From IMG/VR virus record IMGVR_UViG_2531839446_000024, positions 1-5,846 of that record: a DNA stretch of 5,846 bases. One strand, 5' to 3'. Origin of the DNA: a virus (taxonomy: Duplodnaviria > Heunggongvirae > Uroviricota > Caudoviricetes). The position numbers are program-made. Positions 1,342-4,300 of the stretch are shown here, in pieces (position 1 is the first letter of the stretch; each line of letters starts with the position of its first letter).

Positions 1342-4300
1342 TAACCGTATCGCGTTTATTGACCCGGCAAACGGGAATGAAACGCCGATGTTTGTGGTCA
1401 GGGAGATCAGATATTTATGAACGACGTGTTCCTGAAGCGCCTGACGGCCCCGACCATTACCAGTGGTGGAAATCCACCGGCATTTTCCCTGACATCAGAC
1501 GGAAAGCTGACCGCTAAAAATGCGGATATCAGTGGCAGTGTGAATGCGAACGCCGGGACGCTCAACAATGTCACGGTAAATGAAAACTGTACGATTAAGG
1601 GCATGCTGGAGGCGACTCAGGTCAGAGGTGACTTCGTTAAAGCTGTATCCAAATCATTCCCGAAACAGGCTGGTACGTGGGGTAACACGGAAACACCAAA
1701 CGGGACGGTTACAGTCACCATCAGCGATGATCATAACTTTGACCGTCAAATCATTATTCCGCCCATTATCTTTAACGGAATAGCGTATAGCTATCCGGGA
1801 AGTGGTAATAACCCGGGAGGTACAAGATACACGGGTTATGGTTTTGAAGTTCGCAAAAACGGTGTATTAATCGCATCCAGAGAAACTAAAGGGGCCATTC
1901 CCGGTAGCTACAGTGCGGTTATTGATATGCCGAGTGGCAGGGGAAGCGTCACTCTGGAGTTTAAGGTTTTCCATAAAGGCAATCAGCGGGCAGGTAATAT
2001 CACCGACTGTACGGTGATTGTGACCAAAAAAGCCGCTTCCGGCATCAGTATTCGTTGAAATTGTTATAACCCATATAAGGGCACCAGAAATGGTGCCTTT
2101 TTTATTGCAGAAAAGCGAGAGGTAATTATGCGTAAACTTTATGCCGCCATTTTTTCCGCAGCCATCTGTCTGGCCGTATCCGGTGCGCCTGCATGGGCAT
2201 CTGAACATCAGTCCACGCTGAGCGCGGGGTATCTTCATGCCTCGACGAACGTTCCCGGCAGCGATGATCTGAACGGGATTAACGTGAAATACCGTTATGA
2301 GTTTACGGACACACTGGGGATGGTGACGTCATTCAGCTATGCAGGAGACAAGAATCGCCAGCTGACCCATTACAGCGATACCCGCTGGCATGAAGATTCC
2401 GTTCGTAACCGCTGGTTCAGCGTGATGGCGGGGCCGTCTGTGCGCGTGAATGAATGGTTCAGCGCGTATGCGATGGCGGGTGTGGCTTACAGCCGTGTGT
2501 CGACTTTCTCCGGGGATTATCTCCGCGTAACTGACAACAAGGGGAAAACGCACGACGTGCTGACCGGAAGTGATGACGGTCGCCACAGCAACACGTCTCT
2601 GGCGTGGGGGGCTGGCGTGCAGTTTAACCCGACCGAATCCGTGACCATTGACCTTGCTTATGAAGGTTCCGGTAGTGGCGACTGGCGAACGGATGCATTT
2701 ATTGTTGGTATCGGATACCGTTTCTGACAACAGACGCCGATTTATCTTCTGTAAATATTGTTATGATACGCAGGTTCATCCACCTTATGGGGTGAACTGC
2801 GTTTGAGGAAACGTAAAGTTACACTGTCCTGAAGCCCGTGGCGTCACTGCTGCGGGCTTTTTTTATTGGTGGAAAAGTATGACTGTAAAAATTTCTGGCG
2901 TGCTTAAAGATGGCACAGGAAAACCAGTACAGAACTGCACCATTGTGCTGAGGGCCAGACGAACCAGCAGCACGGTGGTGGTGAACACGGTGGCCTCAGA
3001 AAACCCGGATGAAGCCGGGCGTTACACAATGGACGTCGAGTATGGTCAGTACAGCGTCAGTCTGTTGGTGGAGGGATTTCCGCCGTCACACGCCGGGATT
3101 ATCACCGTGTATGAGGGCTCAAAGCCGGGCACACTGAATGATTTTCTCGGCGCCATGGCGGAGGAGGATGTCCGGCCGGAGGCACTGCGTCGTTTTGAAC
3201 TGATGGTGGAAGAAGCAGCGCGTCACGCAGAGGAGGCGAAGAAGAATGCCGGAGAGGCAGAGACGTCCGCGAGGAATGCCGGCATATCAGCCAGTAAGGC
3301 GGAAGCGAGCGCCGCAAATGCTGATACTTCAGCAGAGGATGCATCGGAGTCAGCCCGGCAGGCGGCAGAAAGTGCAGCCTCAGCAAAGCAGTCAGAGGAT
3401 GCGTCCTCGTCCTCGGCTTCTGCGGCCGCTCAAAAAGCCAGTGAGTCATCACAAAGTGCAGCAGAAGCTGAATTGTCAAGAAAGACGGCAGAAAGTGCAG
3501 CCGGTAATGCATCCAGGGATGCGACGACCGCAGCAGAAAAAGCCCGGGAGTCAGCAGAAAGCGCACAGTCAGCGGAACAAAGCAGGATAGCGGCGGAAGA
3601 GGCCGTAAACCGAATCCCCACCGTGGTGGGACCTCCCGGGCCAAAGGGGGAACAGGGGCCCGCGGGTCCTCAGGGGCCGAAGGGTGATAAGGGAGAGCGC
3701 GGTGACACCGGCCCTGTCGGGGCAACCGGCGAACGGGGACCGGCAGGTGATGCTGGTCCGGCAGGCCCGCAGGGGCCGAAAGGTGACATGGGAGAGCGGG
3801 GAGAGACCGGTCTGACGGGAAATGCAGGTCCACAGGGTCCAAAGGGAGATACCGGTGCGGCAGGCCCGGCAGGCCCACAGGGACCGAAAGGAGAAACAGG
3901 TGCGGCTGGCCCGGTGGGGGCAACCGGACCTCAGGGACTGAAGGGCGACCCGGGGGAGACACAAATCCGTTTTCGTCTGGGGCCGATGAGCATTATTGAG
4001 ACAAACAGCTATGGCTGGTTCCCGGATACAGATGGTGCGCTCATCACCGGACTGACCTTTCTTGACCCCAAAGATGCCACACAGGTTCAGGGGATGTTTC
4101 AGCATTTGCAGGTCAGATTTGGTGACGGGCCGTGGCAGGATGTTAAGGGGCTGGATGAAGTGGGCAGTGATACAGGCAGAACAGGAGAATGACATGAACA
4201 TACTAAAAAAACTTATGCAGCGTCTGTGCGGTTGCGGAAAGCATGATGGCTGTGAACACGGGCAGTTACTTACAGCACAACTGCGACTGGGACCGGCAGA

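What the first reader, a model, noticed from the sequence alone, without database searches (positions are those of the whole stretch)
1417..2058. Receptor-binding domain of J is a startable ORF and appears to be a swapped module
The 213-aa ORF starts at an internal Met of the J frame, has a GGGAGA motif 10 nt upstream and overlaps the frame-2 stop (ATGA at 1417-1420). Its first ~60 aa match what I recall of lambda gpJ, but from about [28 protein letters not shown]... onward it differs from the LamB-binding C-terminus I recall for lambda. That suggests a recombinational exchange of the receptor-recognition module, and with the upstream frameshift this domain might be made as a free protein.
Basis: partly seen in the sequence, partly recalled or inferred. 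Interest (0 to 1): 0.5.

Follow-up and report, generated by a model that had tools for sequence, protein, structure and literature searches.

The report
Split phage 434-type J gene tail
The 213-codon reading frame is the last fifth of an ordinary prophage tail-tip gene (J) carrying the long-known phage-434 (OmpC-binding) receptor module, and it is cut off from the rest of J only by two single-base indels seen in this one 454 draft assembly.

Summary
ORF 1417-2058 (213 aa), GGGAGA at 1401-1406 and the ATGA overlap are all present, and high identity to lambda J ends at about 1570-1614.

The ORF is codons 925-1137 of a phage-434-type J. It is 94% identical to phage 434 J, 99% to intact E. coli prophage J proteins, and 51% to lambda J. 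This module has been known since the lambda h434 hybrids (receptor OmpC) and is now used in gpJ engineering, so the swap is real but not new.

The stand-alone ORF exists only because of two opposite 1-nt indels 80 nt apart: an extra G at 1315 and a T missing at 1395/1396. Removing both restores one open J frame. Neither indel was found in about 4,200 J copies of complete E. coli genomes or in the viral, metagenome and genome collections. A sister prophage that differs at only one base from 1498 to 5846 has an intact J. The GGGAGA "Shine-Dalgarno" is simply the Gln-Gly-Asp codons of a natural in-frame J allele.

The source is a 454/Celera draft of EPEC RN587/1, and the contig starts inside J. 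The split is most likely a sequencing error (about 0.6), otherwise a strain-specific pseudogene (about 0.33). A functional free receptor-binding protein is unlikely.

The parts
1..1314 (+). J coding sequence, frame 1, starting at about J nucleotide 1357 because the contig begins inside the gene. It covers the two Ig/FNIII-like domains and the start of the tail-tip fibre domain.
   Evidence: Pfam Ig_J, Ig_J_second and Phage_Tail_Tip match. Identity to lambda J is 92-100%. The window equals bases 1-5846 of contig ADUS01000052.1.
1315..1315 (+). Lesion 1: one extra G (GGC-AAA becomes GGCGAAA). It moves the J reading into frame 2 and exposes the frame-1 stop TAA at 1342-1344.
   Evidence: Absent from lambda, 434, Perceval, O55:H7, L005, L006 and L136-L139. 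The 22-mer spanning it is absent from IMG/VR.
1316..1395 (+). J codons read in window frame 2 ([27 protein letters not shown]).
   Evidence: Frame-2 ORF translation. Alignment to intact J genes. The repaired translation is continuous.
1395..1396 (+). Lesion 2: one T missing from a TT run (natural GTTGGT, window GTGGT). It returns the J reading to frame 1.
   Evidence: Natural in-frame allele ...ATGTTTGTTGGTCAGGGAGATCAGATATT... occurs in L136-L139. The 24-mer with the deletion is absent from the viral, metagenome and genome collections.
1401..1406 (+). GGGAGA, the supposed Shine-Dalgarno motif. It is part of codons CAG GGA GAT (Gln-Gly-Asp) of a natural J allele.
   Evidence: The identical sequence is read in frame in intact J genes; L139 has 1138 uninterrupted codons. 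The commoner allele has GGGCAA here.
1417..2058 (+). The 213-aa ORF, equal to J codons 925-1137 plus the stop codon: the distal central-fibre shaft plus the receptor-binding domain.
   Evidence: 94% identical to phage 434 J 925-1137, 99% to an intact E. coli prophage J, and 51% to lambda J 925-1131.
1417..1590 (+). Conserved linker or shaft segment (J ~925-983), shared by all J allele classes. The mosaic breakpoint with lambda lies at its 3' end (about 1570-1614).
   Evidence: Nearly invariant columns in alignment A2. pLDDT below 50 in the monomer model. [quoted passage not shown]
1645..2052 (+). Ig-like receptor-binding domain, 434 (OmpC) type.
   Evidence: Pfam PF12421 Ig_GpJ_C scores 96.1 bits against a cut-off of 26.2 and covers ORF residues 77-212. 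The AF2 model is confident here. Foldseek top hits are the gpJ central fibres 9wca, 8xck, 8xcj and 9wcb.
2077..2105 (+). Intrinsic terminator-like hairpin plus T-run after J.
   Evidence: A terminator is annotated at the same place in phage 434.

Best explanation
ORF 1417-2058 is not a gene of its own. It is the 3' end (codons 925-1137) of the tail-tip/central-fibre gene J of a lambdoid prophage of EPEC O157:H8 strain RN587/1. This J carries the phage-434-type receptor-binding domain, which by homology to phage 434 and lambda h434 should recognise the porin OmpC rather than LamB.

In the deposited sequence, J is broken by two single-base indels of opposite sign 80 nt apart: +G at 1315 and -T at 1395/1396. 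Between them the frame-1 reading meets a TAA at 1342-1344. The first Met after the frame is restored (the conserved Met925) then makes the tail look like a startable ORF.

The indels are most probably base-calling or consensus errors of the 454/Celera draft, and the real J is most probably intact.

Shown: the identity of the module, the two indels, and their uniqueness to this assembly. Inferred: that they are errors, and that OmpC is the receptor.
For: Identity of the ORF
- 94% aa identity to phage 434 J 925-1137, 99% to an intact E. coli J, and 51% to lambda J.
- Matches Pfam Ig_GpJ_C, and the fold matches solved gpJ fibres.
- Window 1-2717 and 2852-5185 are collinear with phage 434 at 94.6% and 93.0%.

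Nature of the split
- Only two indels separate the window from intact J genes.
- Removing G1315 and adding the T gives a single open frame from 1 to 2058.

Uniqueness of the split
- The best of 4,218 matching places in 2,626 complete E. coli genomes is 96.5% identical over the 141-bp junction, so none carries the indels.
- The lesion-spanning sequences are absent from the public collections: the 24-mer across lesion 2 from IMG/VR, JGI metagenomes and GTDB genomes, and the 22-mer across lesion 1 from IMG/VR.
- The exact 213-aa product is on record for this contig only.

Sister prophage
- A prophage at the same chromosomal site has a full tail gene set and an intact 1165-aa J. Its DNA differs from window 1498-5846 at one base, and none of that is in the RBD.

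Data quality
- The source is a 454 Titanium paired-end draft assembled with Celera (PMC3715677).
- The contig starts inside J, and sister assemblies also break inside J or lom.
- Single-base indels are the characteristic 454 error (established knowledge), and one of the two lies in a TT run.
- Two lesions of opposite sign within 80 nt, in an otherwise undamaged 5.8-kb stretch with lom, stf, tfa and nleB2 all full length, fit a local low-quality patch better than independent mutations.
Against: - The +G at 1315 is not a homopolymer-length change, so it is not the textbook 454 error.
- I could not inspect reads or an independent assembly of RN587/1, so a real mutation is not excluded.
- Defective prophages with broken J genes are common in EPEC and EHEC.
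- OmpC binding was not tested here. 12 of 213 residues differ from 434 J, and OmpC itself varies between strains (PMC11338833).
Confidence: 0.6

Rival explanations
1. The two indels are real. J of this prophage is a strain-specific pseudogene, so the prophage cannot make infectious particles, and ORF213 is an unselected remnant. At most it is translated at low level by reinitiation after the TAA at 1342-1344 during late transcription.
For: - Broken J genes are frequent in EPEC and EHEC prophages (established knowledge).
- The +G at 1315 is not a typical homopolymer miscall.
- The region is a natural mosaic zone of J alleles, where recombination and repair could leave small lesions.
- An ATG with a weak GGAG core 11 nt upstream lies 72 nt after the stop.
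Against: - Two independent neutral indels falling 80 nt apart in a 3.4-kb gene is improbable. The second does not rescue the first, because a stop lies between them.
- There is no other decay: RBD DNA is identical to an intact sister J, and the neighbouring genes are full length.
- No other public sequence shares either lesion.
Confidence: 0.33
2. The receptor-binding domain is deliberately expressed as a free 213-aa protein from its own ribosome-binding site. It might act as a soluble OmpC-binding decoy, or as a separately assembled receptor-binding subunit.
For: - ATG 1417 has GGGAGA 10 nt upstream and overlaps the frame-2 stop.
- C-terminal gpJ fragments fused to MBP bind LamB in vitro (reviewed in PMC3509688), so an isolated C-terminus can fold and bind a receptor.
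Against: - GGGAGA is ordinary in-frame coding sequence in intact J genes, and the common allele has GGGCAA with no SD.
- 28% of plus-strand ATGs in the window have an equal or better SD core.
- No promoter-like site was found.
- The split is not conserved anywhere.
- Other 213-aa entries in the protein collection are contig-end truncations.
- The ORF has no signal peptide visible in its sequence.
- Residues 1-70 are part of the interdigitated trimeric shaft and are low-confidence as a monomer (PMC11101478).
Confidence: 0.04
3. Full-length J is made from the sequence as written, by two programmed ribosomal frameshifts (+1 near 1315, -1 near 1395).
For: The two shifts are exactly compensating, and all three segments are in J-coding register.
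Against: - Reading the sequence, I see no slippery heptamer or known +1 shift site at either position.
- All relatives encode J in a single frame.
- Two programmed shifts within 80 nt would be unprecedented.
Confidence: 0.01

Closest known systems
Phage 434 gpJ (central tail fibre) and the lambda h434 host-range hybrid; receptor OmpC
   Same: - ORF213 is 94% identical to 434 J residues 925-1137 and the same length.
- DNA of window 1-2100 is 94.2% identical to phage 434 and 94.8% to lambda h434 imm21.
- The whole J-lom-stf-tfa-nleB arrangement is collinear with 434.
   Different: - 12 amino-acid differences, for example Tyr126 versus Asp. That Tyr also occurs in other natural J proteins.
- J is interrupted by two 1-nt indels in this assembly.
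- nleB2 is intact here but is a pseudogene remnant in 434.
- OmpC use was not tested for this variant.
Lambda gpJ receptor-binding domain (LamB-binding; PDB 8XCJ, 8XCK, 8IYK)
   Same: - Same domain family (PF12421) and same fold (Foldseek E ~3e-18).
- Same position at the C-terminus.
- 92% identical over the shaft segment 925-984.
   Different: Only about 37% identity across the RBD proper, with several indels in loops. The receptor differs according to the literature (PMC11101478).
Natural and engineered gpJ C-terminal chimeras (A8 and 1A2 gpJ; PDB 9WCA, 9WCB with OmpC)
   Same: - They show that gpJ C-termini from E. coli prophages are exchangeable modules that retarget lambda to OmpC, with the junction at lambda residue 964 (PMC11338833).
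- 9WCA is the best PDB sequence hit (E 1.5e-64).
   Different: A8 is a different RBD class, 55% identical to ORF213. The window's module is the 434 class.
Contig-end or frameshift 'partial J' entries in protein databases
   Same: Many database proteins of ~200-370 aa consist of just this J tail. They include a 213-aa entry starting at the same Met (P0003), which lies at the very start of a 1.6-kb contig.
   Different: Here the truncation comes from internal indels rather than from a contig end.

Membership tests
Lambda-like tip attachment protein J, C-terminal receptor-binding domain (Pfam PF12421 Ig_GpJ_C) | Significant full-length match to the domain model | tested here: met
   96.1 bits against a cut-off of 26.2; profile positions 1-134 of 135; ORF residues 77-212.
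Lambda-like tip attachment protein J, C-terminal receptor-binding domain (Pfam PF12421 Ig_GpJ_C) | Fold like the solved gpJ central fibre and RBD | tested here: met
   The AF2 model is confident over residues 74-205. Foldseek hits 9wca, 8xck, 8xcj and 9wcb score E 2e-16 to 3e-18. PDB sequence hits score E 1e-56 to 1e-64.
Lambda-like tip attachment protein J, C-terminal receptor-binding domain (Pfam PF12421 Ig_GpJ_C) | Forms the C-terminus of one ~1130-aa J polypeptide, in frame with the hub, FNIII and fibre domains | tested here: inconclusive
   Not met in the sequence as deposited, because of the stop at 1342-1344. Met after removing the two indels, and met in every relative examined. Whether the indels are real could not be tested.
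Lambda-like tip attachment protein J, C-terminal receptor-binding domain (Pfam PF12421 Ig_GpJ_C) | Tail-module synteny (…I-J-lom-stf-tfa) | tested here: met
   J-lom-stf-tfa in the window. T-H-M-L-K-I-sodC-J-lom-stf-tfa in the sister prophage.
434-type (h434) host-range class of J, OmpC-dependent | Close sequence identity to the phage 434 J C-terminus across the whole RBD | tested here: met
   201 of 213 residues identical with no gaps. DNA is 94.2-94.8% identical to 434 and lambda h434.
434-type (h434) host-range class of J, OmpC-dependent | Adsorption requires OmpC and not LamB | not testable with these tools
   Known for phage 434 and lambda h434 from the literature (PMC11101478; PMC3509688). 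Inferred here by homology only.
Independent gene for a free receptor-binding protein | Separate ORF conserved in related genomes | tested here: not met
   No relative has the split. The lesion sequences are absent from the public collections. Other 213-aa entries are contig-end artefacts.
Independent gene for a free receptor-binding protein | Its own translation and transcription signals, distinguishable from background | tested here: not met
   GGGAGA is Q-G-D coding sequence of intact J alleles. 28% of plus-strand ATGs have an equal or better SD core. No promoter-like site on the + strand in 1100-2900.
Programmed ribosomal frameshifting | Slippery site at the shift position, and conservation of the two-frame arrangement | tested here: not met
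   No slippery heptamer at 1310-1320 or 1390-1400 on reading the sequence. All relatives are single-frame.

The most novel reading that the evidence does not exclude
The two indels are real, and RN587/1 makes J in two pieces. The 213-aa shaft-plus-RBD fragment would be translated by reinitiation at Met925 and released at lysis as a soluble trimer that binds OmpC. It could then act as a decoy or exclusion factor, or as a non-covalently attached receptor-binding subunit.
Probability: 0.03. Interest if true: 0.45.

Novelty: already known. Interest (0 to 1): 0.08.

Why it matters
It matters little for biology. The 434-type J module and its exchangeability have been known for decades and are already used in phage engineering. 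The practical value is as a caution. J is multi-copy and mosaic in EPEC and EHEC genomes, draft assemblies break or mis-call inside it, and the conserved Met925 then produces plausible-looking "receptor-binding domain" ORFs in databases. A useful by-product is that the RBD (434-type, lambda-type and others) combines freely with at least two J backbone alleles across the conserved 925-983 linker, which is the same junction that engineers chose.

Tried and rejected
1. The three substitutions at 1398, 1404 and 1405 as private mutations that created an SD. Rejected, because four natural prophage contigs carry exactly this sequence in frame.
2. My first repair guess, that lesion 2 was a GGG-to-GG contraction. 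No genome matched it. The correct ancestral form is GTTGGT, so a TT-to-T loss. Even the correctly repaired 231-bp junction has no exact full-length match in complete E. coli genomes, where the best is 97.8%, because this allele is rare.
3. A templated or quasi-palindrome origin for the lesions. No similar 12-13-mer (up to 2 mismatches) occurs elsewhere in the 6-kb locus.
4. A mixed consensus of allele A and allele B reads as the direct cause of lesion 2. Aligning the alleles does not reproduce the observed bases, so this stays a possibility for the assembly in general rather than a demonstrated mechanism.
5. An internal promoter for ORF213. None was found.
6. Recurrence of a stand-alone 213-aa J tail as evidence for a gene. 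The examples are contig-end truncations.
7. A complete genome of the same strain or prophage. None is in the collection, and the best whole-window match is 94.7%.

Full report
**What is in the window.** The 5,846 bases are bases 1-5846 of contig ADUS01000052.1 of assembly GCA_000188875.2. That assembly is the draft genome of EPEC O157:H8 strain RN587/1, sequenced from 454 Titanium 8-kb paired-end libraries and assembled with Celera (PMC3715677). The window is the right end of a lambdoid prophage:

- J, partial because the contig begins at about J nucleotide 1357.
- lom at 2128-2727.
- A collagen-repeat side tail fibre at 2879-4192.
- A small fibre-C-terminus protein at 4194-4463.
- The type III effector gene nleB2 at 4639-5619.

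Chromosomal genes (pot transporter, pepT-like, roxA-like, phoQ/phoP) follow on the same contig.

**Check of the observation.** All stated features are present.

- ORF 1417-2058 starts with ATG and encodes 213 aa.
- GGGAGA lies at 1401-1406, 10 nt before the ATG.
- The frame-2 ORF 1223-1420 ends in a TGA that overlaps the ATG as ATGA.
- The upstream J frame stops at TAA 1342-1344.
- Residues 1-60 match lambda gpJ 925-984 at 55 of 60 positions, and the remaining 153 residues match at 57 (overall 51%).
- A sliding-window DNA comparison puts the drop from over 90% to 50-70% identity at 1570-1620. The blastn high-identity block ends at 1614, which is lambda J residue ~990.

**What the ORF is.** It is J codons 925-1137.

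- It is 94% identical, without gaps, to phage 434 J 925-1137, and 99% identical to an intact 1137-aa prophage J of E. coli Z1323HEC0475.
- Residues 77-212 match Pfam Ig_GpJ_C, the gpJ receptor-binding domain, at 96 bits.
- The best PDB sequence hits are gpJ fibres: 9wca, 8xcj and 8iyk.
- An AlphaFold2 model is confident over residues 74-205 and finds the same structures by Foldseek.
- Residues 1-70 have pLDDT below 50. That is expected, because this segment belongs to the interdigitated trimeric beta-prism shaft described for lambda (PMC11101478).

Window DNA 1-2100 matches phage 434 (94.2%) and "lambda h434 imm21" (94.8%) over its full length. The window stays collinear with phage 434 through lom, stf, tfa and into nleB. 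Phage 434 keeps only a pseudogene remnant of nleB.

According to the literature, replacing lambda J with the 434 gene retargets the phage from LamB to OmpC, and the C-terminus of gpJ determines host specificity (PMC11101478; PMC3509688). So the "swapped module" is real, but it is the classical h434 module.

Natural gpJ C-termini are also already exploited as exchangeable parts. [quoted passage not shown] That junction lies in the conserved segment at the start of ORF213.

Among the loci I fetched, the 434-type RBD sits on two different J backbone alleles (A: 5, B: 13). Backbone B also carries a lambda-type RBD (1) and other RBDs (28). The RBD therefore shuffles as a module in nature.

**Why the ORF stands alone.** Alignment with intact J genes shows two things.

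- An extra G at 1315 (GGC-AAA becomes GGCGAAA).
- A one-base shortfall near 1395-1398.

At first the second lesion looked like a deletion plus three private substitutions, which also created GGGAGA. That reading was wrong. Four IMG/VR prophage contigs (L136-L139) read ...GAAACGCCGATGTTTGTTGGTCAGGGAGATCAGATATT... in frame. L139 has 1138 uninterrupted J codons ending in the 434-type tail.

So T1398, A1404 and G1405 belong to a natural allele that encodes FVGQGDQIF. GGGAGA is its Gln-Gly-Asp codons. The window differs from that allele only by the loss of one T from a TT run at 1395/1396.

Removing G1315 and restoring the T gives one open frame from base 1 to the TGA at 2056-2058. The two indels have opposite sign and lie 80 nt apart. 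They do not compensate in the sequence as written, because the shifted reading meets TAA at 1342-1344.

**Is the split real?** Neither lesion appears anywhere else.

- Over the 141-bp junction, the best of 4,218 places in 2,626 complete E. coli genomes is 96.5% identical.
- The lesion-spanning sequences are absent from the public collections. The 24-mer across lesion 2 is missing from IMG/VR, the JGI metagenomes and the GTDB genomes, and the 22-mer across lesion 1 is missing from IMG/VR.
- The exact 213-aa product is on record for this contig only.

A sister prophage in GCA_013056845.1 sits at the same chromosomal site. It has the full tail set T-H-M-L-K-I-sodC-J-lom-stf-tfa-nleB2 and an intact 1165-aa J. 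It differs from window 1498-5846 at a single base, at 3523. The RBD-coding DNA has therefore not decayed at all. The other genes of the window are full length.

The contig starts inside J, and contigs of two other sister assemblies start at the equivalents of 1793 and 2611. J and lom are therefore repeat boundaries that trouble assemblers in these genomes.

Single-base indels are the characteristic 454 error (established knowledge). Two of them within 80 nt of otherwise clean sequence suggests a locally poor consensus more than two independent neutral mutations. Against this, +G1315 is not a homopolymer-length change, and I could not see reads. My estimates are:

| Explanation | Probability |
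|---|---|
| Sequencing or assembly artefact | about 0.6 |
| Real strain-specific pseudogene | about 0.33 |
| Anything functional | under 0.05 |

**The free-protein idea.** Nothing supports it beyond the ATG and the weak GGAG core.

- The motif is ordinary coding sequence in intact genes. The commoner allele (GGGCAA) has none.
- 37 of 130 plus-strand ATGs in the window have an equal or better core.
- No promoter-like site lies on the + strand between 1100 and 2900.
- The many short "J tail" proteins in the protein collection come from draft contigs, and many are labelled partial. The 213-aa entry P0003, which starts at the same Met, occupies bases 1-642 of a 1,578-bp contig.

C-terminal gpJ fragments can bind LamB in vitro as MBP fusions (PMC3509688). 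A remnant made by reinitiation might therefore bind OmpC after lysis, but that is speculation.

**Mosaic detail.**

- Window 1-~1497 follows the lambda/434-like backbone (allele A). It is identical to L005 from 1406 to 1536, apart from the short GQGD patch.
- From 1498 onward the window is nearly identical to the sister prophage, whose own backbone is allele B.
- The chromosomal flank of the two strains is about 99.6% identical, against 99.98% for the prophage arm. The strains are therefore not clonal, and the backbone difference may be genuine recombination rather than a chimeric contig. I could not distinguish the two.

**Verdict.** The module-swap interpretation is correct but long known. 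The free-protein interpretation is not supported. Interest is low.

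Noticed in passing
window 4639-5619 (+): Intact nleB2, a type III effector arginine glycosyltransferase (Pfam SseK_NleB, 568 bits), sits as cargo just downstream of the tail-fibre genes. Phage 434 has only a short annotated pseudogene remnant at the collinear position, yet its DNA stays 93% identical to the window at least to 5185.
   Followed up: partly
window 2879-4192 (+) and 3102-3962 (-): The side tail fibre gene contains a long collagen-like Gly-X-Y repeat region (Pfam Collagen, about residues 250-365). The repeats leave a 286-aa antisense ORF open, and the public gene calls list part of it as a 258-aa gene. 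It is almost certainly spurious.
   Followed up: no
window 2879-4192 and 4194-4463 (+): The last ~64 residues of the side tail fibre and the following 89-aa protein both match Pfam Phage_fiber_C (117 and 122 bits). The small downstream 'tfa-like' gene therefore looks like a duplicate of the fibre's own C-terminal domain.
   Followed up: no
window 1 (contig start); L132 and L133 starts (window equivalents 1793 and 2611): The RN587/1 contig begins inside J, and two other draft assemblies that carry the same prophage arm break inside the J RBD and inside lom. These genes are repeated within such genomes and fragment assemblies systematically, which explains the large number of 'partial J' proteins in databases.
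   Followed up: partly
L134 5037-5549 (-), between tail gene I and J of the sister prophage: A Cu/Zn superoxide dismutase gene (Pfam Sod_Cu) is inserted in the opposite orientation between I and J, as a moron inside the tail operon. Whether RN587/1 has it cannot be seen, because the contig starts downstream.
   Followed up: no
window 1792 (ORF213 residue 126): Tyr (TAT) where phage 434 and most close relatives have Asp (GAT), in an RBD loop (AYSYPGSG versus AYSDPGSG or AYDDPGSG). The Tyr also occurs in the sister prophage and in P0003, so it is a natural polymorphism, possibly relevant to which OmpC variants are recognised.
   Followed up: partly
window 1380-1500: At least three natural allele forms exist just upstream of Met925: FVAQGNQIF, FVGQGDQIF on a divergent backbone, and FVGQGDQIF on the lambda-like backbone. 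The window switches between reference lineages twice within about 120 nt, so this stretch is a hotspot of J mosaicism.
   Followed up: partly
window 2077-2105 and 2831-2866 (+): Terminator-like hairpins with T-runs follow J and lom, at the same positions where terminators are annotated in phage 434. lom is thus bracketed as its own unit.
   Followed up: no
window ~5620-5846: Similarity to the O55:H7 and O157:H7 nleB2 prophages ends at 5620. In those strains nleC, nleH1 and nleD follow, whereas here chromosomal genes follow within ~0.4 kb. The effector cargo region is therefore much shorter in this prophage, and the prophage-chromosome junction lies close to the end of nleB2.
   Followed up: no
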